Positions 1 to 18,372 of a stretch of DNA of 18,539 nt are shown here, piece after piece (position 1 is the first letter of the stretch; each line of letters begins with the position of its first letter). Made by a program: the position numbers and the translations under genes. This stretch comes from Candidatus Thorarchaeota archaeon. GTDB lineage: Archaea > Asgardarchaeota > Thorarchaeia > Thorarchaeales > Thorarchaeaceae. The notes beneath the pieces were generated by a model. That model worked only from the letters and a program-made list of their open reading frames with translations. It was not told where the DNA came from and made no database searches. Where the stretch lies: assembly GCA_003345595.1 (NCBI GenBank), contig PRDI01000109.1, positions 1 through 18,539 of the forward strand, written 5' to 3'.

Positions 1-1050
1 CGGGTGTGCTTGTTCGGCGAGCACAGTGATTACTTACGCCTACAGGTGCTGCCTGCGGCAATAAACCGTTCAATAGACATCCTTGTCTTTCCAAGACACG
101 GTTCCTCGATTAGAGTCTTGTACGTCAACCTGAACGAAACGGACACGTTCGATATACACAAGGTTGTGACCTATCGTCACCGACGCGAGTATCTTCGAAG
201 TGCCTTCAATGTCTTGGCACGACAAGGCATGAAACCGTCCACTGGAGCAGACCTGACTGTCAGTGGAAACATCCCGATTGCTGCAGGACTCTCAAGCTCC
301 TCGGCTCTGACAGTTGCCTCTGTCATGGCATTTGCGTACCTGACCGGCACCCAGCTCAAACCTGACAGGATCGCACATCTCGCATTTCAAGCAGAAGTGC
401 AGGAGTTTGGAGAGAGCGGCGGAATGATGGACCATTTTGCCTCAGCATATGGCGCACTGATCCACCTTGACTGCGGTCATGAGAACCGGCTCACGAAGCT
501 GCCAGCGCAACTGAACGGTCTTGTGATTGGCGACTCTCAGGAGAAGAAGACGGACACTGTGGGCGATCTCATCTCCATTAGAAAGACTGTAGAAGATGGA
601 TATAGGCGACTTGCTGATCTGCTCCCCGGTTTTGATCAGAGAGTGACTCCGCTTGAGCTAGTTGAAAGGTACATCGACAGACTCCCCGAAAGCTGCAGAC
701 TCATGACCATGTCGACGATCAGGAACCGGGACCTAACAACTCGCGCAATGAGATTGCTGAGCTCAGCCTCGCCAGATCCCAAGATTGTAGGTCTTATGCT
801 CGATGAGCACCACTCGATTCTGAGAGATGGACTACATAGATCCACGCCGAAGATAGAAGCCATGATCTCAGCTGCGAAGTCTGCAGGCGCGCTCGGCTGC
901 AAGATAAATGGTAGTGGAGGGGGCGGGACAATGCTGGCTTATGCACCCGGCTGCGAGAAGGAGGTTGCAGACGCCATAAGTCAGTCAGGCGGCATTCCTT
1001 ATCCCGTGAAGATATCTCAAGGGGCTTCTGGAGCAGCCATCACGGAATAG
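1..1050 (+). CDS. GHMP kinase, galactokinase-like (5'-truncated)
   Basis: Frame is open from base 1 (RVCLFGEHSDY, matching the galactokinase GRVNLIGEHTDY signature). It has the PIAAGLSSSSA ATP-binding loop, GMMDH and GCKINGSGGGG motifs. Substrate uncertain. Confidence 0.85.
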   Translation, partial: RVCLFGEHSDYLRLQVLPAAINRSIDILVFPRHGSSIRVLYVNLNETDTFDIHKVVTYRHRREYLRSAFNVLARQGMKPSTGADLTVSGNIPIAAGLSSSSALTVASVMAFAYLTGTQLKPDRIAHLAFQAEVQEFGESGGMMDHFASAYGALIHLDCGHENRLTKLPAQLNGLVIGDSQEKKTDTVGDLISIRKTVEDGYRRLADLLPGFDQRVTPLELVERYIDRLPESCRLMTMSTIRNRDLTTRAMRLLSSASPDPKIVGLMLDEHHSILRDGLHRSTPKIEAMISAAKSAGALGCKINGSGGGGTMLAYAPGCEKEVADAISQSGGIPYPVKISQGASGAAITE

Positions 1051-2623
1051 CCTGCTGCCCTGCGGCCAATTCACTCATTCTGGTTTCTACAGTGGAAACC
1101 GTTTCTTCTTTCACCTTTCCAGCGGCGGCTACCAGTTGATCTACGTCCTCACTCATCTTCTTGACGAATGCCTTGTCATGAATGTTGCCCAAGTTGATCC
1201 TGACATTCAGTGCGGCTCCTTCGACGGCTGCAAACAGGGCGAACGCCGCCACGCCGGCGTCAGTTATCGCATTTATGTTGCCCTTCTCTGCAACAGTTCT
1301 CGCCGCTTCAAGTGCCTTAAGTGAGTGCTGTATTGTTGTCAGGGGCACCTCTGAAGCATGCTTTGTCGCCGCCTCGACTTGCTCCGCCTTCTTCCTCTTT
1401 TCTATGTCAGTCCCCTCAGGCATCCTGATGGCCGTCATGACATCCTCGAAGGCAGCTGAGTCCTTCTCTACAAGGTCCATGAGAATCCCGCGGTCAGTTT
1501 CAGCTGTGTGCCTTAGACCTGTCATTTCATCCTTGATGGCTGCGAACTTGCGTCCCGACAGAGACAGGCCCGAAACCATGCAGACCAAGCCAGCTCCGTA
1601 TGATCCCATGAGTGCCGCTACGCTGCCGCCACCAGGAGTAGCATGAGCTCGCCTGACTTCATCGCCGAACTCTATGAGCGACATCTCTGTGAACGTCTTC
1701 TCAGTCGGCTCATTTGCTCCTGCTAGGTAGTAGAGGTCGAGAATCATCGACTCGTCGAGCTTGTCCACCTGTAGGTAGTACTTGACCGCATCAATCAACG
1801 CAAACAAGGGAACCATGCCCACAATCTCGGTTTCAACGACAGAGGCGCCGTAGCGACGTGCCTCGTTTCGTACAACCTCAAGAGCCTGATGCATTCGAGT
1901 GCGTCCAGGGTTGGTCAGGTTCATGGATATCTGAGTCATCCCCCTTTCGGGGAGTTCAATGCCCATCGCTTGAATGTTGACGAGCCCGCCAGTGGTCGCA
2001 CGGACGGCATCAGCACATGCTTTTGCTGCACGCAAGTCCGTGGTGTTCAAATCGGCATTGAAGGCAATCAAGAAGTTGCGGGCGCCGGTGGCAGTACAGC
2101 CTGCAGTAGGGTGAATCTTCTTTGGACCGTAGTCGGGATCCTTAGCTGGGTCCTTCCCGATGAGTTGTCTCAGGCCTTCGAATTCACCCTCTCGTATGTT
2201 GGGCAGTTCGACACGCTCAGGACGAGTCGCAGACTTGGCGTACAGGTAGACGGGAACGTTGCACGCACGAGAGAACTCCTCTCCAAACTCCTTGGAGAGC
2301 TCGATGCACTCACCAATGGTGACACCATGTAGAGGGATAAAGGGAACAACATCGACAGCGCCCATGCGGGGATGTGCACCCTTGTGCCGAGTCAGATCAA
2401 TCTTCTGTACTGCCAGCTTACTGGCCTTGAGGACTGCCTCCTTGACCTTCTGAGGTTCACCAATGAGTGTGAACACTGACCTGTTGTGATCGTGATCGTA
2501 CTCAAGGTCTAGAAGCTTAACTCCCTCAACACTGCGTATTGCATCGGCAAGGGCGTCAATGACCTCCTGTCGCCTGCCTTCGCTGAAGTTTGGAACACTC
2601 TCTACAATCTTCACGTCCGTCAC
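1040..2623 (-). CDS. ftcD: Bifunctional glutamate formimidoyltransferase / formimidoyltetrahydrofolate cyclodeaminase (fused FTCD)
   Basis: N-terminal VESVPNFSEGRR, DHNRSV, HPRMGAVDVVPF, GAR and QISMNL motifs (FT domain); C-terminal TPGGGSVAA, D..AF, GNINAITDAG and NVRINL motifs (cyclodeaminase domain). GTG start. Confidence 0.95.
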   Translation of the reverse strand: MTDVKIVESVPNFSEGRRQEVIDALADAIRSVEGVKLLDLEYDHDHNRSVFTLIGEPQKVKEAVLKASKLAVQKIDLTRHKGAHPRMGAVDVVPFIPLHGVTIGECIELSKEFGEEFSRACNVPVYLYAKSATRPERVELPNIREGEFEGLRQLIGKDPAKDPDYGPKKIHPTAGCTATGARNFLIAFNADLNTTDLRAAKACADAVRATTGGLVNIQAMGIELPERGMTQISMNLTNPGRTRMHQALEVVRNEARRYGASVVETEIVGMVPLFALIDAVKYYLQVDKLDESMILDLYYLAGANEPTEKTFTEMSLIEFGDEVRRAHATPGGGSVAALMGSYGAGLVCMVSGLSLSGRKFAAIKDEMTGLRHTAETDRGILMDLVEKDSAAFEDVMTAIRMPEGTDIEKRKKAEQVEAATKHASEVPLTTIQHSLKALEAARTVAEKGNINAITDAGVAAFALFAAVEGAALNVRINLGNIHDKAFVKKMSEDVDQLVAAAGKVKEETVSTVETRMSELAAGQQAIP

Positions 2624-2691
2624 TGATGCCAGATTCTGCTGGAACTGGCAAAAAAGGTTTGGGCAAGAAACAGTGTGCTAGACCGAGAGGC

Positions 2692-3627
2692 TTAGCTGCT
2701 GTAAGTCCCCAGATCGATGGCATCCCCTGTCAGCACGTTGGCCATGGCCTTGTCGAAGGCGTACGCGGAGAGCACGTTCTTGAGAAGCATCGTTATGGTC
2801 ATGGGACCCACCCCACCCGGAACGGGAGTTATGTATGACACTTTGCACTTTAGAGCCTCAGTGTCACAATCACCATTGGGCGTTGCGACGTCGATGACGA
2901 TTGCACCCTCTTTGACCATGTCGGCGGTAATAAAGAATGGATCTTCTTTTGACTTGCGGCGACCAATCGCAGTGACAAGAATGTCAGCCTGTCTGGTAAA
3001 CGATGGCAGGTCTCGGGTCTTCGAGTGACACACTGTGACAGTCAGGTCTCTGTTCAGAAGCATCATCACCAGAGGCTTCCCTACGATTGTCGATCGGTTG
3101 ACAATCACTGCGTGTTTGCCCTGAAGTGGAACTCCGAGATGATCTAATATCGTGGCAATTCCCTGAGGGGTTGCTGCACCAAGCAACTCACTGCCATAGA
3201 ACAGCCTGTAGATGTTGGTCGGCGAGAATCCATCGACGTCCTTTGTGGGCTCGACTGCGCTGATAATCCTCTCTTCACTAATGTGCTTGGGCAGCGGAAG
3301 CTGGACTAAGATGCCGGAAACTGATACGTCGTGGTTCAACGTGTGAATAAGATCTATCAACTGGTCTTCTGTGGTATTGTCTGGAAGGTTGTACTGACCT
3401 GAGGCTATCCCTACGCGCGCACAGGCCTTATGTTTCATTCTGACATACATGGTAGAGCCCGGGTCTTCCCCCACTTGCACCGTGACCAGCTTCGGGGGAG
3501 CCCCGTAGGCCTCAGTCAGCCGAGCGACCTCGCGCGCAATCTCTTCCTCTATGTGCCCAGCCAGCTTCTTGCCGCTGATCACGCGATCGTCACAGAAAGT
3601 GCTTGGAGTAGCCTCCATCGTAGTCAT
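2692..3627 (-). CDS. folD: Methylenetetrahydrofolate dehydrogenase/cyclohydrolase
   Basis: YVRMK (YxxxK), GILVQLPLP, KDVDG, RSTIVGKP, CHSKT and TPVPGGVGPMT motifs. The start could instead be the ATG at 3618. Confidence 0.95.
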   Translation of the reverse strand: MTTMEATPSTFCDDRVISGKKLAGHIEEEIAREVARLTEAYGAPPKLVTVQVGEDPGSTMYVRMKHKACARVGIASGQYNLPDNTTEDQLIDLIHTLNHDVSVSGILVQLPLPKHISEERIISAVEPTKDVDGFSPTNIYRLFYGSELLGAATPQGIATILDHLGVPLQGKHAVIVNRSTIVGKPLVMMLLNRDLTVTVCHSKTRDLPSFTRQADILVTAIGRRKSKEDPFFITADMVKEGAIVIDVATPNGDCDTEALKCKVSYITPVPGGVGPMTITMLLKNVLSAYAFDKAMANVLTGDAIDLGTYSS

Positions 3628-3642
3628 TCAAACACCACCGGT

Positions 3643-5241
3643 CTAGAACACACCAAAGATGTTGTTTTTCTCATCTAGCCCCATGCCCACAGCTGCTGGT
3701 TCCTTCGGTAACCCAGGCATGAGCATGATGTCACCCATGTAGACGACAACGAACCCTGCTCCCGCGCTCACGTCAACACCACGTACAGAAACGTCGAACC
3801 CCGTCGGTCTGCCAAGGAGCTTGGGATTGTCGGACAGACTGAACTGCGTTTTGGCAACGCATACGGGCAGCTTACCGTACCCGCGTTTCTCCAGTGACCT
3901 GATGTCAGACTCAGCATCTTCAGCATACGTGACTCCCCGAGCACCATAGACCTTTGTCGCCAGTTTACTGACCTTTGTCTTCAGATCGTCCTCGAGTTCG
4001 TATACGTAGGTAAGCTTGCTTTTCTGGCCAACGACTTCGATGATGTCAGCTGCTAGTTCCTTGCCACCTTCACTCCCCTTTGCGTAGACCTCGGAAACCT
4101 CCATCTTCCATCCACGCTTTGAGCAGAAGGCCTTCAATGCGGATATCTGTTCGGGAGTGTCGCTCGGGAACCTGTTCAGTGCAATGACAGCTGGCAGTCC
4201 GAAGGCACGCACGTTTTCCACGTGTTTCTCAAGATTCGGAAAACCCTTCTCAAGCACACCCTCGCCGTGGTTCATGAGTGCCCTGATTGATGTGACAACG
4301 ACGACTGCGTCTACTTTGAACCCACCTATCCTTGTCACTATATCGACGAACTTCTCAGCTCCAAGATCTGCTCCAAAGCCAGCCTCGACGACTACATAGT
4401 CGAACAATCTCAGAGCGATATCGATAGCTGTCACGGAGTTGGTACCGTGTGCGATATTGGCGAATGGACCTGCATGGATCAGAGCAGGGGTTCCTTCGGA
4501 CGTCTGGACCAAGTTAGGCATTAGTGCGTCCCGCAGGAGCACGCTCATCGCACCTTCAGCCTTAAGGTCGCTAGCATGAACCTCCTCAAGCTTCATGGTA
4601 CGTCCGACAAGGACTCGACCAAGGCGTGCCTTGAGGTCTTCGTAACTTGTCGCCAGAGCAAGAATGGCCATAATCTCAGAGGCAGCAGTTATCACGAATG
4701 AGTCCTCGCGCGGAAAGCCATTCGCTTTCCCACCGAGGCCAACAGCTATCTTCCTGAGGGCTCTATCGTTCATGTCGATGGTCCGAGGCCAGTAGACTCT
4801 TCGAATATCTATGTTCAGCTGATTGCCCTGGTGAATGTGATTGTCAATCATGGCAGAAAGCAGATTGTGTGCGGCAGACACAGCAGGAAAGTCCGAAGTA
4901 AACAGCAGGTTGATCTTCTCGAAAGGCAAGACCTGAGCCTTGCCGCCTCCAGCGGCTCCGCCCTTCACGCCAAAGACAGGACCAAGTGACGGCTCTCTTA
5001 TTGTGACAACTGCCTTGCGACCCATAGCGTTGAGAGCCATTGACAGACCAATCGCATTCGTGGTCTTGCCCTCTCCTGCAGGTGTGGGAGTGGTCGCAGT
5101 GACGAGGATCAGTCTTCCCTTTCTCTCTCCTAGCACCTTCTTGATTCCTAGGTCAATCTTGGCCATATACTTGCCGTATGGTTCCAGAAACTCGGAAGGT
5201 ATGCCTGCTTTCTCAGCCACTTCTGCAATGGGAATCATCAT
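3643..5241 (-). CDS. fhs: Formate--tetrahydrofolate ligase
   Basis: TPTPAGEGKTT, REPSLGPVFGVKGGAAGGG, HAGPFANIAHG, EAGFGADLGAEKF, AKTQFSLSD and MPGLP motifs. Confidence 0.97.
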   Translation of the reverse strand: MMIPIAEVAEKAGIPSEFLEPYGKYMAKIDLGIKKVLGERKGRLILVTATTPTPAGEGKTTNAIGLSMALNAMGRKAVVTIREPSLGPVFGVKGGAAGGGKAQVLPFEKINLLFTSDFPAVSAAHNLLSAMIDNHIHQGNQLNIDIRRVYWPRTIDMNDRALRKIAVGLGGKANGFPREDSFVITAASEIMAILALATSYEDLKARLGRVLVGRTMKLEEVHASDLKAEGAMSVLLRDALMPNLVQTSEGTPALIHAGPFANIAHGTNSVTAIDIALRLFDYVVVEAGFGADLGAEKFVDIVTRIGGFKVDAVVVVTSIRALMNHGEGVLEKGFPNLEKHVENVRAFGLPAVIALNRFPSDTPEQISALKAFCSKRGWKMEVSEVYAKGSEGGKELAADIIEVVGQKSKLTYVYELEDDLKTKVSKLATKVYGARGVTYAEDAESDIRSLEKRGYGKLPVCVAKTQFSLSDNPKLLGRPTGFDVSVRGVDVSAGAGFVVVYMGDIMLMPGLPKEPAAVGMGLDEKNNIFGVF

Positions 5242-5368
5242 TTCACACTTTCCAGCCTAACGCTGGTCCCTAGCGCTCGCCTTCCCTTGATAAACAATGC
5301 CAAACGTCACAACCGTGTCCAAAAGAACATAAGACAGGCATCTGCAATGCTACGCAGGGTTAACCAAA

Positions 5369-6676
5369 ATGGACAGGACACCGCTCGAAGCACTACCGGA
5401 TGCACTCCCTGACGGGATAGAACTTGAGAAGTATATAGTCGGGACCTACTATGTAGGACTTCCGCCGATGCTCGATGCAAGGCAGCTGGCGTGGGGCGCA
5501 GCTGTGGAGCAGAGCACCGGAACATGGATTCCTGTTCCCGGTGAAACCGTCGACGTCCGAAAGAGGCACATTGCCAAAGTGATTGGGGTCTTCGAGGTTC
5601 CGTACTATGAGTACAGTACGCCCAAGGATCTAGAAAGGCGCGAATATGTAATCCAGGTCGCCTTTCCATGGGCGAACTTCGGAGCACAGATTCCCATGAT
5701 GCTCAGCACTGTAGTGGGCAACATAAGCATGGGAGGACGTATCAAGTGTCTTGACCTGCGCTTCCCGAAGAGCTTCCTGAAGTCATTCAAGGGACCAAAG
5801 TTCGGAATCAGCGGCCTGCGAAAACTGACCGGAGTGAAAGACCGTCCATTCTTGAACAACATGATCAAACCATGCGTGTATACCTCTGCAAAGATGGGTG
5901 CAGGCCTCTTCTATGAGGCCGCTGCAGGCGGAGCGGACATAATCAAGGACGATGAACTTCTCGCTAACCCAGAGTACAACAGCTTGGCTGAGCGTGTGCC
6001 ATTGTTCATGGAAGCCGCTGACAGGGCCAATGCGGAGAAGAATGAGAAGACCCTCTATACCGCGAACATAACTGACAGCATAACCAGACTCTTTGAGAAC
6101 GCCGAGAAGGCGCAGGAGTGGGGAGCCAATGCTCTGATGGTCAACTTCCTCGCTGTGGGCTATTCTGCATTCCAAGCAGTCTGCGAGGACCCGTCAACGA
6201 AGGTGCCTGTGCTGGCACATATGGACATCGCAGGCGCGCTGTATGAATCGCCGATTACAGGCATTGCCTCGAACCTAGTCATCGGGAAGCTGCCAAGAAT
6301 CTGCGGTGCCGATATCACTGTCTTTCCGGCCCCATATGGGAAAGCCCCTATACTCAAGGAGAGATACCTCGGTATGGCCCATGAGATGGTCATGCCGCTG
6401 CTCCACATCGAGCAGACAGCTCCAATGCCCAGCGGCGGTATTTCCCCAGGCATGGTAGAGGAAGTGATGGAAGACCTGGGTCCCGACATTGTAATCGGGT
6501 CGGGCGGGGGAATACATGCACACCCTAAGGGACCACGCGCTGGTGCGACGGCCTTCAGACAGGCGATTGAAGCGAAGATGAAGGGCATCCCTGTCAGCCA
6601 GTATGCAAGTGAACATGAGGAACTCAAAATCGCCATGGAGTCATGGGGTGCCGGCAGGACTGGATTCGAGCTGTAG
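5369..6676 (+). CDS. RuBisCO-like protein (form IV, RLP)
   Basis: EQSTGTW, FKGPKFGI, IKDDE, PMPSGG and GSGGGIHAHP motifs. The carboxylase residues K177, R295 and H327 (form I numbering) appear substituted (IKPC, AHMD, ITVFP). Confidence 0.9.
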   Translation: MDRTPLEALPDALPDGIELEKYIVGTYYVGLPPMLDARQLAWGAAVEQSTGTWIPVPGETVDVRKRHIAKVIGVFEVPYYEYSTPKDLERREYVIQVAFPWANFGAQIPMMLSTVVGNISMGGRIKCLDLRFPKSFLKSFKGPKFGISGLRKLTGVKDRPFLNNMIKPCVYTSAKMGAGLFYEAAAGGADIIKDDELLANPEYNSLAERVPLFMEAADRANAEKNEKTLYTANITDSITRLFENAEKAQEWGANALMVNFLAVGYSAFQAVCEDPSTKVPVLAHMDIAGALYESPITGIASNLVIGKLPRICGADITVFPAPYGKAPILKERYLGMAHEMVMPLLHIEQTAPMPSGGISPGMVEEVMEDLGPDIVIGSGGGIHAHPKGPRAGATAFRQAIEAKMKGIPVSQYASEHEELKIAMESWGAGRTGFEL

Positions 6677-6729
6677 TCCACGCTAGCGACTGACCAAAGA
6701 TTATGATACGATATCTGAGGCGAATAGTC

Positions 6730-7731
6730 ATGAGTACCGCAAAGAAAATGGATGACGAGATAGTCGATTGGCTCCTTGAGGAAGAGAATCCAAGTGTGCG
6801 GTTCTGGGCCCTGCAGCAGCTTCGAGGGAAGAAAGGGACTGATGCAGAGGTCATAGCGGCTCAACGTGCGATCATGCAGTCAGACTGTGTCAAGGCAATC
6901 CTAAAGGCTCAGAGGCCGGAGGGGCACTGGGAAAACAGGGAGAGCTTCTATCTACCGAAGTACATAGCGAGTACCCACAATCTGCTGATTCTCGCAGAGC
7001 TTGGTGCTGAAGCTACTACTGCCATAAGACGCGGAGTGGAGCATGTGTTCCTGTTCCAGCGCGATTCGGGTCATTTCTTGATCAACATCCCAAAGACAGA
7101 GAAAGGCAAAGCGAGTACGATGACAGATGGGTGTTGCATTGACGGCAACATACTGTACTACCTGCTCCACTTCGGCTATCTTGAAGACGCTCACACAAAG
7201 AGGCTCATCCAGTTCCTTGTTAACGATCATTCGAAAGATTACGGATGGCGATGCAGGTCCTATCCAATTGACAGGAACAGAGTCTTTCCAGTCAACTGCT
7301 ACATGGGAGCTGTAAAAGCCCTCAAGGGTCTGTCCATGATTCCCAAGAAAGACCGATCCGCTGAAGTCAGTTATGTCATCCAAGCAGAAACAGAGTCTAT
7401 CCTCTCTAACCAAGTGTACAAGTATCTTCGTGGGCCAAAGGGCGAGAGGAAGGAGAAGGCAGGATGGAAGCGTTTTGGTTTTCCTCTGTTCTATCAATCG
7501 GACGTTCTTGAAGTGCTGGACGTGCTGACTGGGCTGGGCGCACATGATGAAAGGATGTCTGATGCCGTCGAACTTGTGGAGAAGGCTCGAGGGCCTGACG
7601 GAAAATGGGCACTCAAGAACACCTTCAATGGCAAAATGCTGTGCAACATTGATACGAAGAACCAGCCATCGAAGTGGGTGACTCTCAGGGCCGTGCGAGT
7701 TCTGAAGAGATGGTATCAGGAACATGGCTAG
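6730..7731 (+). CDS. Uncharacterised (alpha/alpha)-toroid protein with prenyltransferase/squalene-cyclase-like repeats
   Basis: Repeated QW-like motifs (ILKAQRPEGHW, LFQRDSGHF, KDYGWRC, KARGPDGKW), plus FGFPLFYQSDVLEVL and a C-terminal PSKWVTLRA. ATG 6730 preferred over 6703. Confidence 0.65.
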   Translation: MSTAKKMDDEIVDWLLEEENPSVRFWALQQLRGKKGTDAEVIAAQRAIMQSDCVKAILKAQRPEGHWENRESFYLPKYIASTHNLLILAELGAEATTAIRRGVEHVFLFQRDSGHFLINIPKTEKGKASTMTDGCCIDGNILYYLLHFGYLEDAHTKRLIQFLVNDHSKDYGWRCRSYPIDRNRVFPVNCYMGAVKALKGLSMIPKKDRSAEVSYVIQAETESILSNQVYKYLRGPKGERKEKAGWKRFGFPLFYQSDVLEVLDVLTGLGAHDERMSDAVELVEKARGPDGKWALKNTFNGKMLCNIDTKNQPSKWVTLRAVRVLKRWYQEHG

Positions 7732-10432: not shown

Positions 10433-11014
10433 CTATTTCAAAGCACGGACTTCTGCCGCTGTTTGAAACCAGAAAGCGACCCTGAACAGGACTTCCTCCA
10501 AGAGGCGAGGTCTGTTGTCGGGGGTAGCATCTTCGGGCCACTTGTGGCGCCTGTAGTCGTCAAACTTGTCGAATGTCTTGCCATACTTCGTCGTGAGAGG
10601 CGTTTCCACCTTTCTGTCGCAGACCGTGACAAGAGCACGAACGAGAGTGGTGAAATCGAAGTCCAGACGAAGCAACCAGTCGCGAACAGCTTTGAAGAAC
10701 CTCGTCTGTTCAGTCTTGTCCCAAGGTAGACTCTTGACAGCATCTCGGTCCCGCGCGTCGACTCGGTCACTGTTGAAACTGCAGCTCTTGTCGTAGGTGC
10801 AGCGAGCCCTCACAAGCACGTCTTGCTTTGATAGCCACACAGCAAGTTCATGATTGCCCTTCTTCGATAGGGCCACCTTGTGATCTCCAGCTGGAAAGAT
10901 GACCTCGACAACGCCTACGTCCTTCTGACGTAGTCCCTGCTTGAAGTAGAGGTCAAGGGCCCACGCAATCGGAGGCAGGACGTTTGCTGCGTAGTACTCG
11001 TCAGGCTTAGTCAT
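10433..11014 (-). CDS. Hypothetical protein (193 aa)
   Basis: Fills the gap between the GTPase and the kinase on the same strand and has protein-like composition; no motif recognised. Confidence 0.7.
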   Translation of the reverse strand: MTKPDEYYAANVLPPIAWALDLYFKQGLRQKDVGVVEVIFPAGDHKVALSKKGNHELAVWLSKQDVLVRARCTYDKSCSFNSDRVDARDRDAVKSLPWDKTEQTRFFKAVRDWLLRLDFDFTTLVRALVTVCDRKVETPLTTKYGKTFDKFDDYRRHKWPEDATPDNRPRLLEEVLFRVAFWFQTAAEVRALK

Positions 11015-11094
11015 TCTTCAAAACCTAGTTCGAAATGATGGTGCGATTTGCCTGTGGCGTCAACAAGGAACCTAAGAAGATGCTTCCGGTCTGC

Positions 11095-11655
11095 TCACTG
11101 GACTTCCCACTGGCCGCCTTCCTCACGTTGTTCAACTAGGGTCTTCCCGAGCTGCTCGAATATGTCAATGACCCCCTCTCCGGTCTTTGCAGAAGACTCA
11201 ACATAGGGCATTCGGCGCTTGTCTGCAAACTCCCTGCCTTCCGCGGGTGTCACGACACGGTCTGGAAGGTCTGTCTTGTTTGCCACGAGGACAAGTGGTA
11301 TGTCCTTGTTTATGGCCTTGCGAAGCTCATCTAGCCACTCCTGTAGGACGATGAATGTGCGACGTCGGGTCACGTCGAAAACCAGTATTCCTCCACTGGC
11401 GCCTCGGTAGTACATGGGTCGAAGGATCTGAAAACGCGACTGACCAGCCACATCCCAAATCTGGAGCTTGACCGTAAGCCTCCGTCCCTCGCTCGCTTTG
11501 ATGTCAATGTTCTTGACGGCGAACTGAGAGCCAATTGTGGTCTTGTAGTCAGTCCTGAAGAAGCCATGTGAGAATCGGGTCACGATTGCAGTCTTGCCAA
11601 CAGCACCCTCGCCCAACACAACTACTTTGTACAGTCGGTCATACGTACTGCTCAT
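11095..11655 (-). CDS. Rab-like small GTPase (Ras superfamily)
   Basis: G1 GEGAVGKT, G2 TIG, G3 WDVAGQ, G4 NKTD and G5 SAK; RabF-like motifs IGSQF, KLQIW, RFQIL, YYRGA and LVFDVT; no C-terminal Cys. Confidence 0.93.
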   Translation of the reverse strand: MSSTYDRLYKVVVLGEGAVGKTAIVTRFSHGFFRTDYKTTIGSQFAVKNIDIKASEGRRLTVKLQIWDVAGQSRFQILRPMYYRGASGGILVFDVTRRRTFIVLQEWLDELRKAINKDIPLVLVANKTDLPDRVVTPAEGREFADKRRMPYVESSAKTGEGVIDIFEQLGKTLVEQREEGGQWEVQ

Positions 11656-14234: not shown

Positions 14235-14660
14235 ATGCCTAAAGAGAAAGACGAATTGGGAATCATGGATGACTTCGAGTGGGCGCTAAAGGACCCCAGT
14301 GAAGAGAAGCTACGCGAACTGGGAACGGTCGTTTCTACTGTCACCATGAAGCTTGTTGCCGCAATCTCCGATCTTCAGACTGCTCTGTCTGATGTTCAAA
14401 CCAAGCTTGGGGCCCTTGATTCCCGCGTTAGCCAACTGGACAGCAGGATGGCAAGCGGCAGAACCGCAGGATCCTCAGCCGGGCTCGAAATGGGAGCATC
14501 CGGTGCCGCTGCTTCGCCAGGCATTGCTAGGGCACCCATAGCCAAGGCCCCAACTCCAGCGCCAGCTGCCGGAGGAGGCGGAGGTCTCATGGGTGAACTC
14601 AAGTCATTACTGTCTGCAAGGAGAAGGAAGACAGACACCGGCCCCGAGGGCACTGGGTAG
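14235..14660 (+). CDS. Coiled-coil protein with Ala/Pro-rich linker and C-terminal Ena/VASP FAB/WH2-like helix
   Basis: Heptad pattern ISDLQTALSDVQTKLGALDSRVSQLDSRM; linker RAPIAKAPTPAPAA; C-terminal GGGGGLMGELKSLLSARRRK. Confidence 0.7.
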   Translation: MPKEKDELGIMDDFEWALKDPSEEKLRELGTVVSTVTMKLVAAISDLQTALSDVQTKLGALDSRVSQLDSRMASGRTAGSSAGLEMGASGAAASPGIARAPIAKAPTPAPAAGGGGGLMGELKSLLSARRRKTDTGPEGTG

Positions 14661-14672
14661 TTCCAGAACAGC

Positions 14673-15341
14673 CTAGATGAGCGTCTTGACAGCGTTCATG
14701 GTATAGAACGGACCTGCATGAGTCGGAAGCGATAGAGTGAAAGCTTCTGCTCTTTCGCAACCTGCTTGGATGCCGCGCAGACGAGTCCTGGCATCATAGA
14801 ACCTCAGGTAGAACGCGTCAGCCTTTGTCAGCTGTGATTTGTGTTCCTTGAGGGCACTCACTGCGGTGGAGAAAGACTCAGAAACGTCCATCAAGACGTG
14901 AGGCTGTGAATGGAGGCTGTTGATCTCCATGCCATAGATCCTGTTCACCCGATAGGCGTTCTCAAAGGTTGTTGTATGTGACGCCCATTCAATAGCATCC
15001 GCCACCAGCTGAGCACACTGAACGTGATTTCGATTGTAGTCATCTCCAGAGTGGGTGATGACCGCTGATGGCCTAGACTTCAGGATTGTCTGAACAATCT
15101 CCTTTCCCAATGACCAGTCGACCGCGAAATCGTCACGTGTGTTTGTGTACACCTCTCTAACTCCCAGCAGGCGGCAAGCTGCCCGCATCTCTCTGTTTCG
15201 GGTGTCGTTCCCCGTCAGAGCAAGGACATCCACACTGACACCTTGATCCACATGTCGCCTGATAGTGCCGCCAGCTCCTAGGCATTCGTCATCAGGGTGC
15301 GCCACTATCACAAGAATGGAGTCCTGAGGAGGGCCTGTCAT
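14673..15341 (-). CDS. bshB: PIG-L family N-acetylglucosaminyl deacetylase, BshB-like
   Basis: VIVAHPDDE Zn motif, TRNRE, ITH..D...H, HKSQ and AEAF motifs; divergent from bshA. ATG 15341 preferred over TTG 15371. Confidence 0.8.
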   Translation of the reverse strand: MTGPPQDSILVIVAHPDDECLGAGGTIRRHVDQGVSVDVLALTGNDTRNREMRAACRLLGVREVYTNTRDDFAVDWSLGKEIVQTILKSRPSAVITHSGDDYNRNHVQCAQLVADAIEWASHTTTFENAYRVNRIYGMEINSLHSQPHVLMDVSESFSTAVSALKEHKSQLTKADAFYLRFYDARTRLRGIQAGCERAEAFTLSLPTHAGPFYTMNAVKTLI

Positions 15342-15458
15342 ACGCTCGCCGAGGAGTATCTGTCTAATCAACGTTTGGACAGAACTGACGCCAGCCTGAC
15401 TGACCCTACCAGTTCACTTAAAGGGACAGAGCAGTACGCGGCTGTTGAGTGAACCACA

Positions 15459-16622
15459 ATGCGGATTGGCGTCAACCTCTATCCTGGCGTTGGAGGCTCC
15501 GGGCATTTGGCGACAAGATTGGGTGAACATCTTGCCCAGAGAGGACACACTATCCACTTCATTACTTATCAGCGGCCCTTCGCTCTGATGTGGGAGCAGT
15601 ACAGAGGAATCTACGTCGATCTTGTTGACAGGTTCGACTATCCTCTTTTCAGTGAAATAGGACCTCCGTACGCGATGGCCTTGACCTCAAAGATCTTGAA
15701 GGTGAAGAACGACGCGAATCTCGACCTGCTTCACGCGCATTATGCGATTCCGCACGCCATGGCAGGATACATGGCACGAGAGATATCCGGTCTGCCATAC
15801 CTCGTCACTCTTCATGGATCAGACGCGCATACACTCGGGCCAGACCCGGCCTACAAGCCGGTCGTAAAGTTCACGGTAGAGAAGGCAAACGCAGTGACCG
15901 CAGTGTCTCAGTTTCTGCAGAAGACGGCGTACGAGCGGCTCGGCATTGAGAGGGAGATACACGTCGTGCCAAACTTCATCGACACAAAGCAGTTTCAGCC
16001 ACTTGACAGCTGCAGGCTGACTGTGGAAGGTGGCTGCGTTGGCATGAAAAGGGGAGAGGATGCTAAAACCATTGACCCTGAAGAGAAAGTGCTACTACAC
16101 ATCTCCAACTTCAGGGAGGTCAAACGTGTGACCGACCTTATCGAGATAATGCGGATTGTGGTCAATGAGATTCCCAACTCCCGTCTCATAATCGTAGGGG
16201 ATGGACCCGAACGCATTGAGGTGGAGAGGAGAATCGAGAAGCTCAATCTATGCAATAACGTCCATCTGCTTGGCGTCAGAACAAGCATGCAGGAGATATT
16301 CTGTGGAACAGACGCGTTTCTCCTCAACTCCAAAGTGGAAGGCATGCCGCTGGTATTGCTTGAGGCCATGGCATGTGGCGTGCCAGTGGTCACGACTCCC
16401 GCTGGTGGCGTTCCAGAGCTCGTACGTCCAGGTGTCGATGGCGTTGTGACAAAGGGATTTGAGCACGATGAGTTTGCAAAAGCGGTGATAGACATTCTCG
16501 AGAAGGATAGCCTCAGGAAGACTCTCGCAAAGGCAGGACGGAAACGAGTCGTTGAGAGCTTCTCTTCAGAGAGAATAGTACCAATGTATGAGAAGGTGTT
16601 CGAGGAGGCAGTTGCCACCTAA
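15459..16622 (+). CDS. bshA: N-acetyl-alpha-D-glucosaminyl L-malate synthase (GT4)
   Basis: BshA-typical YPGVGGSG, HFITY, YPLF, LLHAHYAIPHA, TLHGSD, VTAVS and HISNFREVKR motifs. Confidence 0.9.
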   Translation: MRIGVNLYPGVGGSGHLATRLGEHLAQRGHTIHFITYQRPFALMWEQYRGIYVDLVDRFDYPLFSEIGPPYAMALTSKILKVKNDANLDLLHAHYAIPHAMAGYMAREISGLPYLVTLHGSDAHTLGPDPAYKPVVKFTVEKANAVTAVSQFLQKTAYERLGIEREIHVVPNFIDTKQFQPLDSCRLTVEGGCVGMKRGEDAKTIDPEEKVLLHISNFREVKRVTDLIEIMRIVVNEIPNSRLIIVGDGPERIEVERRIEKLNLCNNVHLLGVRTSMQEIFCGTDAFLLNSKVEGMPLVLLEAMACGVPVVTTPAGGVPELVRPGVDGVVTKGFEHDEFAKAVIDILEKDSLRKTLAKAGRKRVVESFSSERIVPMYEKVFEEAVAT

Positions 16623-16628
16623 GGAGGT
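16621..16628 (+). promoter_or_regulatory. Shine-Dalgarno site overlapping the bshA stop codon
   Basis: TAAGGAGGT; AAGGAGGT ends 10 nt before ATG 16639. Confidence 0.6.
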
Positions 16629-16638
16629 TCTTGAGAAC

Positions 16639-18372
16639 ATGGACCTCAGTATTTCAGAGGTCTACCAGGCGTTTGTCTGGAAAGGCGAAAACGCTGAACT
16701 TGCTAAGGATCTCTACGACACCCCGGTTGAAACTATCGGGGGTGTCACTGACAGAGCGACGAGGCTAATCGCCGCCTACAAAACCGCAGCGTGGCACAGC
16801 GCCGAACGTATTGAAACCATTGCTAGAACTCTAACACATGTATGCGGCGAGATTGGATGCTACACGCCTAGAGTCAGGGAATCCATCGAGCGCTTGGGTG
16901 CTGGAGTCGTGGAGGCATCTCACCAGAGCGTAGTGATGGGCGGGCCCGTCTACATTCTGAACAAGGCAGCCACGGCCAGACGGGTTGCCACACTCGCTCA
17001 CGAAAGGGGTCTGGACCTGTCGCCCGTCTTCTTTATCGCAGACTATGACATGGTCCAAGCGGAACTCACAAACATCAGAACGCCTGTTCCTGGTCAGGAC
17101 GGGAACCTGGTCAGCGTGCCAGTCCCCGAGGGATACGAGCATTCGCCTGTGAGCAGACTCCCGTTGCCTGGATACGACTGGTACTCTAGGACTGAGGACA
17201 GCATTCGAGCAGGCTATAGGCCGCTGTTCAAGTCGATGGGAGCTCTGCACAGGAGTATGTTCGACGAGCGGCTTGAACAATGCCTAGCCCTGACTCGCTC
17301 CACCTATGTCAATTCACGCACACTTGGCGACTGGGCAATGAAGATACTTGCGAGACTGTTCAACATCGAACAGGATCTCGGGATACCGCTTGTACCAGCG
17401 TCTGATCTCTCAGTGAGAGAGCTGCTCGTCACGGGAATGGAGCTCCTTCTCAGTCGAACAGCCCGGACGAGATTCATTAAGGCACATAATGCGGCTTCAG
17501 AAGCCGCCAGAAAGGGGGGCTTCAAGCCGGGGATGAGTCCCAGGGATTCACGGTACGTACCATTCTATTATGAGTGCACCAATGCGACCTGTCACTCGAG
17601 TCGGACTGAGCTTCAGTATGAGGATCAGGGGTCAAAGGCAACAATAACAGGAAAGTGCCCATCTTGTGGTGAAGATATCGAGATAGAAACCTCGGCTGAC
17701 AAACCTGACCTCAAAGAGTTCGCTGCGAACTTGTCGCCCCGCGTGGATTCAAGGCAGATCATTGTAGACACAATGTTGCCTGTGCTGATACACATAGGTG
17801 GCATTGGAGAAACGGCGTACTATGCGCAAGTGATACCAGCCGCAAGAGCATTGTCAGTCCCATTCCCACTGTTTGTGCGCTATCCTCGTGTGTACTTCAA
17901 CACTCCATGGAATGAACAACTGGCATTGAGTCTGAAGAGAAACAACATCCCTGTGCTTCATTCACCAGGTCTGTTCGCTCTTGTTGGCAAAATCGGCAGG
18001 TCTGCAAAGAAGGGCAAGCCGGAAGAGCTGAATGATGCAGTATGGGAACTCATGCGCCTGATAACGGACACCAGACGAGCCTTGGATCAAGAACTCGCGA
18101 GAATCAAGGAGGCAGTTCCCAAGGCGGCAGGCGAAGAGGCAAAACGACTCCTAACGCTCAAGCTCGACCTTGAGCGCTACCTCAGCTGGGTCTTCGGCGA
18201 GTATGCAGAAGAGAAGGCAGGACAGGAAACGGCATGGTCTTGGATTGAATGGGCTGTGAACTCGAGTTTTCACGATTTGTTCGGCCCGTACGAGCGTGCT
18301 TACACTGGAGCTATGAAGAACGGCGCAACGATGTTCGTGAACTTCACTGTTCCGGAAGAACCTTCGAACTAA
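16639..18372 (+). CDS. bshC: Divergent BshC-like putative cysteine-adding enzyme
   Basis: HQSVVMGGPVYILNKA (cf. GQQ..LFTGPLYTIYK), PVFFIADYD (cf. PVFWIAGEDHD), SPRVDSR...LP...IGGIGETAYYAQ (cf. SPNVVLRP...LP...GGPGEIAYWAQ), a C-terminal coiled coil, and position directly after bshA. Confidence 0.8.
   Translation: MDLSISEVYQAFVWKGENAELAKDLYDTPVETIGGVTDRATRLIAAYKTAAWHSAERIETIARTLTHVCGEIGCYTPRVRESIERLGAGVVEASHQSVVMGGPVYILNKAATARRVATLAHERGLDLSPVFFIADYDMVQAELTNIRTPVPGQDGNLVSVPVPEGYEHSPVSRLPLPGYDWYSRTEDSIRAGYRPLFKSMGALHRSMFDERLEQCLALTRSTYVNSRTLGDWAMKILARLFNIEQDLGIPLVPASDLSVRELLVTGMELLLSRTARTRFIKAHNAASEAARKGGFKPGMSPRDSRYVPFYYECTNATCHSSRTELQYEDQGSKATITGKCPSCGEDIEIETSADKPDLKEFAANLSPRVDSRQIIVDTMLPVLIHIGGIGETAYYAQVIPAARALSVPFPLFVRYPRVYFNTPWNEQLALSLKRNNIPVLHSPGLFALVGKIGRSAKKGKPEELNDAVWELMRLITDTRRALDQELARIKEAVPKAAGEEAKRLLTLKLDLERYLSWVFGEYAEEKAGQETAWSWIEWAVNSSFHDLFGPYERAYTGAMKNGATMFVNFTVPEEPSN

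What the first reader, a model, noticed from the sequence alone, without database searches (positions are those of the whole stretch)
14235..14660. Small protein with an Ena/VASP F-actin-binding-like motif: candidate archaeal actin regulator
Seen: an N-terminal coiled coil, a Gly/Ala/Pro low-complexity linker, and GGGGGLMGELKSLLSARRRKT at 14571-14633. Known (from memory): the human VASP EVH2 F-actin-binding segment reads [20 protein letters not shown], and VASP works as a coiled-coil oligomer; Asgard archaea encode actin, profilin and gelsolins. Inference: an oligomeric, multivalent actin binder (bundler, nucleator or elongator) with its coiled coil placed N-terminally, i.e. a possible overlooked eukaryotic-signature protein. 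The match is short and could be convergent.
Basis: partly seen in the sequence, partly recalled or inferred. Interest (0 to 1): 0.8.

Follow-up and report, generated by a model that had tools for sequence, protein, structure and literature searches.

The report
Asgard coiled-coil protein, VASP-like tail
This is a real 141-residue Thorarchaeota gene from an undescribed protein family found across Asgard archaea; its conserved end helix resembles the filament-binding block of animal VASP well beyond chance, which makes it a testable but unproven candidate for a missing archaeal actin factor.

Summary
ORF 14235-14660 (+) encodes 141 residues with a conserved head, a clean five-heptad coiled coil, a disordered Ala/Pro/Gly arm and an end helix at the stated coordinates.

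The human VASP FAB 20-mer, taken from PMC10340426, finds this tail as its single outlier among all six-frame ORFs of the genome (E 1.2e-5; next best about 1). The genome is a Thorarchaeota-type MAG with an actin and gelsolin-domain genes.

The protein belongs to an unnamed family found in most Asgard lineages searched. Only the ELK core of the tail is conserved across the family. The Gly run and the RRRK that drive the VASP match are found only in Thor sequences. Lokiarchaeia and a likely Odin genome carry true polyproline arms; this protein does not.

The whole module also forms the C-terminus of Arf-like GTPases in Lokiarchaeia. Other lineages have longer relatives with several tail-like helices in tandem.

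No Pfam WH2, thymosin or VASP model matches. The probable L. ossiferum orthologue is expressed but is not among the enriched Lokiactin co-IP proteins.

Verdict: an oligomeric adaptor with a docking helix. Actin is the best single guess for the target (about 0.4); membrane or a GTPase-linked partner are live rivals. This scan has flagged the same family before on other DNA.

The parts
14235..14660 (+). Whole gene: 141 codons plus stop (protein P0001)
   Evidence: ORF list and translation. There are 40 close relatives at 42-94% identity by BLASTP. Profile hits in 153 of 201 Asgard genomes at E 1e-5; the weakest of these are partly coiled-coil noise.
14262..14354 (+). Conserved head (residues 10-40): an acidic/aromatic start, then the most conserved block of the Thor subfamily
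   Evidence: Invariant columns W16, A17, L18, K19, D20, P21, E24, G30, V32, S34, T37, K39 and L40 in 41 sequences. AF2 models helices 10-19 and 23 onward. This block aligns with the segment that follows the GTPase domain in the Lokiarchaeial Arf-like fusions.
14352..14450 (+). Coiled coil, about five heptads (residues 40-72)
   Evidence: Unbroken a/d hydrophobic spacing. AF2 models a helix at high confidence. PDB and Pfam give only generic coiled-coil hits.
14460..14585 (+). Disordered Ala/Pro/Gly arm (residues 76-117), ending in a Gly run
   Evidence: pLDDT below 50 for residues 77-115. The arm varies in length and sequence among relatives. Thor-type sequences lack runs of four or more Pro in 25 of 26 cases.
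14532..14552 (+). Short conserved island inside the arm (residues 100-106), Thor subfamily only; unexplained
   Evidence: A105 is invariant and the neighbouring residues match the majority consensus of the 41 Thor sequences. The island is absent from Loki and Frey relatives.
14586..14630 (+). Conserved amphipathic basic end helix (residues 118-132): the VASP-FAB-like motif and family signature
   Evidence: M119, G120, E121, L122, K123, L125, L126, A128, R129, R130 and K132 are conserved at 90% or more. The ELK core is conserved at 90% or more across 81 sequences from several classes. AF2 models a helix at 118-134 with pLDDT about 86. FAB match at E 1.2e-5. A tail-only HMM finds no second copy in this genome.

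Best explanation
The gene encodes a small adaptor protein. Its coiled coil would assemble two or more chains, and each chain would hold out a flexible arm of about 40 residues tipped with a conserved amphipathic basic docking helix.

My best single guess for the docking target is Asgard actin. Several tail helices per oligomer would bind filament sides or the barbed-end cleft, so that the particle tethers or bundles filaments. In lineages whose arm is true polyproline, the particle might also gather profilin-actin. This is a minimal Ena/VASP-like or WH2-like logic, reached without membership in those families.

Shown here: the gene is real, the layout is as described, the tail is conserved, the family is widespread in Asgard archaea, and the resemblance to FAB exceeds chance.

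Inferred: that the protein oligomerises, what the tail binds, and any effect on actin assembly.
For: 1. The tail is the only outlier hit of the VASP FAB 20-mer in the whole genome. FAB is itself considered WH2-like (PMC3034019).

2. The tail core is the most conserved element across the family, from Thor to Loki, Frey/Jord and a likely Odin genome. It includes an invariant Glu at the edge of the hydrophobic face, which suits a specific protein contact better than generic lipid binding.

3. Relatives in Lokiarchaeia carry runs of four or more Pro in 34 of 37 cases, the class of tract that recruits profilin in VASP, WASP and formins. A 1.42-Mb closed genome, probably Odin, has one too.

4. Longer relatives in two other Asgard families keep the same head and coil but carry three or four tail-like helices in tandem on a long arm. 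That is the multivalent design of filament binders and WH2-repeat nucleators.

5. Every named source of a full-length, tail-bearing match is an Asgard archaeon; the remaining hits are unnamed metagenome sequences or generic coiled coils. This genome has an actin and gelsolin-domain genes.

6. Current literature lists only profilins and gelsolins as Asgard actin regulators and notes that polymerases such as formins and Ena/VASP belong to the more complex eukaryotic machinery.
Against: - No Pfam WH2, thymosin, WH1 or VASP_tetra match to whole proteins or to excised motifs at E up to 10. A tail profile finds nothing relevant in the PDB.
- The Gly run and RRRK, which carry much of the FAB score, are Thor-only. 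The FAB and GAB peptides do not pick out other family members above background.
- This protein itself has no polyproline.
- The whole module is fused to Arf-like GTPases in Lokiarchaeia. That fits a membrane anchor or a GTPase partner as well as it fits actin.
- A flexible linker followed by a terminal amphipathic basic helix is also the classic membrane-targeting design. The tail's hydrophobic moment is 0.32-0.36 with net charge +3 to +5.
- The probable L. ossiferum orthologue (GNAMCCOK_02219, mapped by gene order and a neighbour's mass) is detected in all 16 proteome columns. It is absent from the Lokiactin co-IP rows with log2 ratio of 1.13 or more in the preprint's table, which is held only in part.
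- There is no gene-neighbourhood link to actin genes. In Thor the neighbours are sugar and thiol metabolism genes.
Confidence: 0.4

Rival explanations
1. Membrane tether. The end helix is a membrane-targeting amphipathic helix, as in MinD, FtsA, OdinFtsZ1 or Arf-type helices. The coiled coil makes a multivalent membrane-bound scaffold. On the Arf-like fusions the same helix would play the part of the lipid anchor that eukaryotic small GTPases have.
For: The design is a flexible linker followed by a terminal amphipathic helix with a basic cluster. Hydrophobic moment is 0.32-0.36, net charge +3 to +5, and the HeliQuest-type D factor is 1.3-2.0. The same tail closes Arf-like GTPases in 155 of 161 Lokiarchaeia-class genomes, at the position where small GTPases carry their membrane anchor. 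Asgard proteins are known to use terminal amphipathic helices for membrane binding (PMC12583498; Asgard Arf papers). The L. ossiferum orthologue is not enriched with Lokiactin.
Against: Mean hydrophobicity of the helix is low (0.12-0.22). An invariant Glu sits beside the hydrophobic face, and many tails end in acidic runs directly after the basic cluster. Both features disfavour binding to anionic lipids. Near-invariance of specific residues is more typical of a protein-protein motif.
Confidence: 0.25
2. GTPase-pathway adaptor. The conserved head and coil bind a small GTPase, or substitute for the C-terminal module of one, and the tail docks on a non-actin effector. The small protein would be the free-standing form of the Arf-like GTPase tail, acting in membrane or trafficking control.
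For: hhalign gives 95.5% probability (E 1.4e-8) that the last 100 or so residues of the 423-aa Arf-like protein P0401 equal the whole small protein: head, coil and tail. The fusion is near-universal in that class. A Ras/Arf-family GTPase gene lies 2.6 kb upstream in this window, and in the two other Thor contigs examined.
Against: The Arf-like GTPase domain of the fusion has no detectable close homologue in this genome, so no partner can be named. The window's neighbouring GTPase is of a different subfamily. The only Arf protein co-purified with Lokiactin in L. ossiferum lacks this tail. Nothing identifies the tail's target.
Confidence: 0.2
3. The FAB resemblance is coincidental, and the protein is a structural coiled-coil protein of unrelated function.
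For: The motif is short, and part of its score comes from low-complexity Gly and Arg runs. It was noticed after the fact, among many possible known motifs. No family model matches.
Against: There is a 14-bit gap to the next best hit in 2.6 M residues. The tail is strongly conserved across a phylum. The tail is re-used on GTPases and in tandem arrays, which shows it is a functional module.
Confidence: 0.1

Closest known systems
Ena/VASP EVH2 region (human VASP: GAB 223-239, FAB 259-278, tetramerising coil 343-380; PMC10340426, PMC3034019)
   Same: Both have an oligomerising coiled coil, a flexible Pro-containing region and a short basic amphipathic helix. The helix aligns with FAB at 13 of 19 positions. 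The multivalent logic is the same.
   Different: The coil is N-terminal here, not C-terminal. There is no EVH1 domain, no GAB and no VASP_tetra match. This protein has no polyproline. The FAB-like flanks are specific to the Thor lineage, so the likeness is probably convergent.
WH2-domain actin binders and Pro-rich/WH2 assembly factors (WASP/WAVE/WASH family; bacterial mimics such as Burkholderia BimA and Vibrio VopL/F, from general knowledge)
   Same: The N-to-C order is coil, then Pro-rich arm, then amphipathic helix with basic residues, with an acidic end in some relatives. Tandem tail-like helices occur in the longer relatives.
   Different: No Pfam WH2 or thymosin match to any whole protein or fragment. 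There is no clear LKKT-type motif at the canonical spacing, no C or A region, and no ARPC4 in this genome.
C-terminal modules of Lokiarchaeial Arf-like GTPases (unnamed; e.g. L009:713-1981 = P0401, 423 aa; L055:199-1626, 475 aa)
   Same: Demonstrably homologous over head, coil and tail (hhalign 95.5%), with the same ELK-centred tail.
   Different: Those proteins carry an N-terminal helical domain and an Arf-family GTPase domain (PF00025, E 7e-22) and a shorter arm. This genome has only the free-standing form.
Terminal membrane-targeting amphipathic helices (MinD, FtsA; OdinFtsZ1 and OdinSepF, PMC12583498)
   Same: A flexible linker followed by a terminal amphipathic helix flanked by basic residues.
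   Different: Low hydrophobicity, an invariant acidic residue and frequent acidic ends. Sequence identity is far more conserved than is usual for lipid-binding helices.

Membership tests
Ena/VASP | N-terminal EVH1 (WH1) domain | tested here: not met
   No Pfam family at E 0.01 or below for P0001. No WH1 among hits up to E 10 for 41 members.
Ena/VASP | Central proline-rich region able to recruit profilin | tested here: not met
   25 of 26 Thor-type sequences have no run of four or more Pro, and P0001's own arm shows none. The feature is present by sequence in 34 of 37 Loki-type relatives. Profilin binding itself was not testable.
Ena/VASP | GAB: WH2-like G-actin-binding motif | tested here: not met
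   The GAB 17-mer from PMC10340426 gives only background hits in this genome and in the long relatives.
Ena/VASP | FAB: basic amphipathic F-actin-binding block | tested here: inconclusive
   The sequence likeness is significant for this ORF (E 1.2e-5). It rests partly on Thor-only flanks, and non-Thor tails are not picked out. F-actin binding was not tested.
Ena/VASP | C-terminal right-handed tetramerisation coil (VASP_tetra) | tested here: not met
   The coil is N-terminal with an ordinary heptad pattern. No VASP_tetra hit.
WH2 domain (PF02205) / thymosin beta (PF01290) | Match to the family model; helix plus an LKKT-type motif at canonical spacing | tested here: not met
   No hit at E up to 10 for whole proteins, excised tails or the tandem motifs of P0402 and P0403. 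HMMER's filters limit sensitivity for such short models.
Unnamed Asgard 'coiled coil, arm, end helix' family | Conserved head, heptad coil, variable disordered arm and an ELK-centred terminal helix; length 115-190 aa | tested here: met
   Searches and alignments. Profile hits in 153 of 201 Asgard genomes, near-universal in several families. Orthologues read directly in six further lineages.
Membrane-targeting amphipathic helix proteins | Terminal helix with a hydrophobic face and basic flanks; lipid binding | tested here: inconclusive
   Amphipathic and basic by calculation, but with low hydrophobicity and an invariant Glu. Lipid binding is not testable with these tools.

The most novel reading that the evidence does not exclude
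This family is the long-sought Asgard actin assembly or tethering factor. It would be an oligomeric polymerase, bundler or nucleator that works by VASP/WH2-type multivalent docking. In Lokiarchaeia it would be wired directly to Arf-like GTPases, so that small-GTPase control of actin assembly predates eukaryotes.
Probability: 0.2. Interest if true: 0.9.

Novelty: new variant of a known kind. Interest (0 to 1): 0.6.

Why it matters
Asgard archaea have eukaryote-like actin, and cultured species show dynamic actin-dependent protrusions and crawling. Only profilins and gelsolins are known as their regulators; no elongation, nucleation or tethering factor has been identified.

This family is small, abundant and present across most of the phylum. 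Its layout matches that of eukaryotic actin assembly factors, and it shares a module with Arf-like GTPases. That makes it a concrete, cheap-to-test candidate for the gap.

If the tail instead binds membrane, the family would show how Asgard small GTPases and scaffolds attach to membranes without lipid anchors. That is also an open question.

Tried and rejected
- Complex prediction of the tail (alignment A5, residues 96-141) with the genome's own actin (alignment A4). The job was not folded, because the tool does not pair a eukaryote-like chain with a microbial one. There is no verdict either way, and I did not try it by other means.
- Pfam scans of whole proteins, 41 family members, long relatives and excised motifs gave only generic coiled-coil noise.
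- PDB sequence searches with the family profile and with a tail-only profile gave coiled coils and one designed peptide.
- The ESM Atlas look-alike search gave nothing usable.
- I tested whether the ARF GTPase co-purified with Lokiactin in L. ossiferum is one of the tail-bearing fusions. It is not. It maps to a 329-aa, 38.1-kDa ORF with a different C-terminus.
- I looked for the L. ossiferum orthologue in the Lokiactin co-IP table. It is not among the rows held with log2 ratio of 1.13 or more. The table is truncated and the identifier mapping is inferred.
I did not find them. The long profile hits are plain coiled coils. The genome's own gelsolin-X protein is unrelated. A tail-only profile in 41 Lokiarchaeia genomes hits only small proteins and ORFs of 354-492 aa; those I read are Arf-like GTPase fusions.
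- The Rosetta-stone link to the Ras-family GTPase 2.6 kb upstream could not be made: the fusion's GTPase domain has no detectable close homologue in this genome.
- The search for related loci could not use the alignments because no stretch was conserved enough.
- Two regions fetched for further fusions missed their ORFs.

Full report
THE OBJECT. The window carries a 141-codon ORF at 14235-14660 on the + strand. Its first residues are conserved in relatives, so the ATG at 14235 is the likely start.

The protein has four parts.
- A conserved head (residues 10-40).
- A coiled coil (residues 40-72). Its hydrophobic positions follow an unbroken 3-4 spacing.
- A disordered Ala/Pro/Gly arm (residues 76-117).
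- An end helix (residues 118-132), followed by a short acidic/Gly end.

AlphaFold2 with an 81-sequence alignment gives helices at 10-19, 23-75 and 118-134. The mean pLDDT of the 10-residue blocks between residues 31 and 60 is 93-96, the end helix is about 86, and residues 77-115 are below 50.

THE HOST. The window lies in a 2.73-Mb, 129-contig genome that is 83% complete. Close relatives of the protein and of the genome's actin are labelled Thorarchaeota by their sources. The genome encodes an actin (PF00022, E 1e-133) and several gelsolin-domain ORFs. The Pfam profilin and ARPC4 models find nothing. For the divergent Asgard profilins this says little. The window also has a Ras-family GTPase, which fits an Asgard origin.

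IS THE VASP LIKENESS MORE THAN CHANCE? I used that 20-mer as a blastp-short query against every six-frame ORF of at least 50 residues in the genome (25,237 ORFs, 2.62 M residues). This ORF scores 37.5 bits (E 1.2e-5, 13 of 19 identical, one gap). The next best hit scores 23.5 bits at E about 1. The resemblance is therefore real at the level of this genome. The motif was noticed after the fact, and part of the score comes from a Gly run and an Arg run.

THE FAMILY. Forty close relatives (42-94% identity by BLASTP), all unnamed and without Pfam domains, come from Thorarchaeota-labelled sources or from unnamed metagenome records. In them the head is nearly invariant and the tail is conserved at 90% or more at eleven positions.

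A profile search of 1.8 billion representatives added distant full-length relatives of 115-165 residues. A further search named their sources as Promethearchaeota, Lokiarchaeia, Freyarchaeota and Jordarchaeia, again all 'hypothetical'.

Against 201 species genomes of the phylum, the profile hits 153. It is near-universal in several families (42/43, 40/40, 18/19). It finds nothing in two families (0/7, 0/10) and only weak or variant forms in another.

I read orthologues directly in six more lineages, including a closed 1,418,269-bp genome that is probably an Odinarchaeon.

Across all of these, only the centre of the tail is constant: an Arg, a hydrophobic pair, then Glu-Leu-Lys, then two hydrophobic residues and a few basic ones. 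The Gly run and the RRRK, the flanks that make the Thor tail look so much like FAB, are Thor-only. Accordingly, the FAB peptide does not pick out non-Thor tails above background, and the GAB peptide picks out nothing. I read the likeness to VASP as convergent or partly fortuitous in its flanks, not as shared descent.

WHAT POINTS TO ACTIN.
- FAB is regarded as WH2-like (PMC3034019), and the tail shares its amphipathic-plus-basic character.
- Lokiarchaeial relatives have runs of four or more Pro in 34 of 37 cases, often several runs of five or more. The probable Odin protein has one as well. Thor (1/26) and Frey/Jord (0/13) types do not. Such tracts next to an actin-binding helix are the hallmark of profilin-actin-recruiting factors.
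- Two other Asgard families have relatives of 260-350 residues with the same head and coil, and a long arm carrying three or four tail-like helices in tandem (P0402, P0403). This is the multivalent design of filament binders.
- Every named source of a full-length match is an Asgard archaeon. The held literature lists only profilins and gelsolins as Asgard actin regulators. The 2026 Nature paper on Asgard crawling contrasts this with the formin and Ena/VASP polymerases of eukaryotes. I found no paper describing this family.

WHAT POINTS ELSEWHERE.
- No Pfam WH2, thymosin, WH1 or VASP_tetra model matches any whole protein or excised motif at E up to 10. PDB sequence searches give only coiled coils.
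- The whole small protein is homologous to the C-terminal 100 or so residues of 410-480-residue Arf-like GTPases. These are near-universal in Lokiarchaeia: hhalign 95.5%, E 1.4e-8; PF00025 E 7e-22; 155 of 161 genomes. At that position a flexible arm plus a basic amphipathic helix looks like a membrane anchor or an effector-docking site.
- The helix is amphipathic and basic by calculation, and Asgard proteins are known to use terminal amphipathic helices on membranes. Against lipid binding, the helix has low hydrophobicity, an invariant Glu beside the hydrophobic face, and frequent acidic runs right after the basic cluster.

EXPERIMENTAL DATA WITHIN REACH. The preprint of the Asgard crawling paper holds proteome and Lokiactin co-IP tables for L. 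ossiferum. I located the species' genome among the held genomes by its single 6,035,313-bp contig. Its orthologue is at 2,628,799-2,629,257 (152 residues, 16.14 kDa, three polyproline runs).

The upstream ORF's mass (24.03 kDa computed) matches GNAMCCOK_02218 (24.01 kDa in the table). This is the same 0.02 offset I see for the Arf protein. The orthologue is therefore probably GNAMCCOK_02219.

That identifier is detected in all 16 proteome columns (mean log2 18.47). It does not appear among the co-IP rows with log2 ratio of 1.13 or more. The stored table is truncated and the mapping is inferred, so this counts as weak evidence against a stable actin complex under those conditions. The co-purified ARF GTPase is a different protein without this tail.

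CONTEXT. In Thor genomes the gene sits between a phosphoglucomutase-family gene and a PIG-L / GT4 / BshC-like trio, with a Ras-family GTPase 2.6 kb upstream. The same order holds in two other Thor contigs. In L. ossiferum the neighbours differ. Gene order therefore gives no functional clue. The fusion's GTPase domain has no detectable close homologue in this genome, and the tail occurs only once here.

NOT DONE.

VERDICT. The protein is a member of an undescribed, phylum-wide Asgard family built as an oligomerising coil, a flexible arm and a conserved docking helix. It is not a member of Ena/VASP or of the WH2 family by any test I could run.

It may still work like them. I put actin docking at about 0.4, a membrane anchor at about 0.25, a GTPase-pathway partner other than actin at about 0.2, and coincidence at about 0.1.

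Earlier agents of this scan reached similar readings on relatives in other genomes. I reproduced the Arf-fusion link independently, and I could not reproduce a claimed gelsolin or profilin fusion.

Noticed in passing
window 14673-18372: A PIG-L deacetylase (- strand), a GT4 glycosyltransferase and a BshC-like gene together form a bacillithiol-type (bshB/bshA/bshC) trio. The same trio is present in two other Thorarchaeota contigs.
   Followed up: no
window 1040-6676: A tetrahydrofolate C1 block on the - strand (formiminotransferase-cyclodeaminase, FolD, formate-THF ligase) sits next to a RuBisCO large-subunit homologue on the + strand.
   Followed up: no
window 10433-11655: A Ras/Arf/Roc-family small GTPase (186 aa, PF00071 E 2e-49) lies beside a 193-aa ORF with no Pfam match. 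One other Thor contig examined (L007) has the same pair; the second (L008) has the GTPase but no gene called beside it. The ORF could be a GTPase partner.
   Followed up: partly
window 6703-7731: A 342-aa ORF with no Pfam family at E 0.01, between the RuBisCO homologue and a class-III aminotransferase.
   Followed up: no
L009:713-1981, L055:199-1626 (Lokiarchaeia genomes): Proteins of 410-480 aa consisting of an N-terminal helical domain, an Arf-like GTPase, a coiled coil, an arm and the same ELK tail. They are present in 155 of 161 genomes of that class. The Asgard Arf papers I could read do not describe them.
   Followed up: partly
L047:489-1271 (-), L050:354-1403 (-): Relatives of 260-350 aa in two other Asgard families carry repeated short Pro-Asn-Leu-type motifs and three or four tail-like amphipathic helices in tandem. 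Some helices are followed by long acidic runs.
   Followed up: partly
L006:722-1663 (-) = own genome contig C103: A 314-aa protein with a weak gelsolin-domain match, a Pro/Ala-rich linker of about 90 residues and a C-terminal domain of unknown kind. It resembles the published Thor 'GelX' layout and is unrelated to the family studied here.
   Followed up: partly
L017:738-1358 (L. ossiferum genome): The zinc-ribbon protein encoded just upstream of the L. ossiferum orthologue is probably GNAMCCOK_02218. It is listed as enriched in the Lokiactin co-IP (log2 1.36, adjusted p 0.034) in the preprint's table.
   Followed up: no
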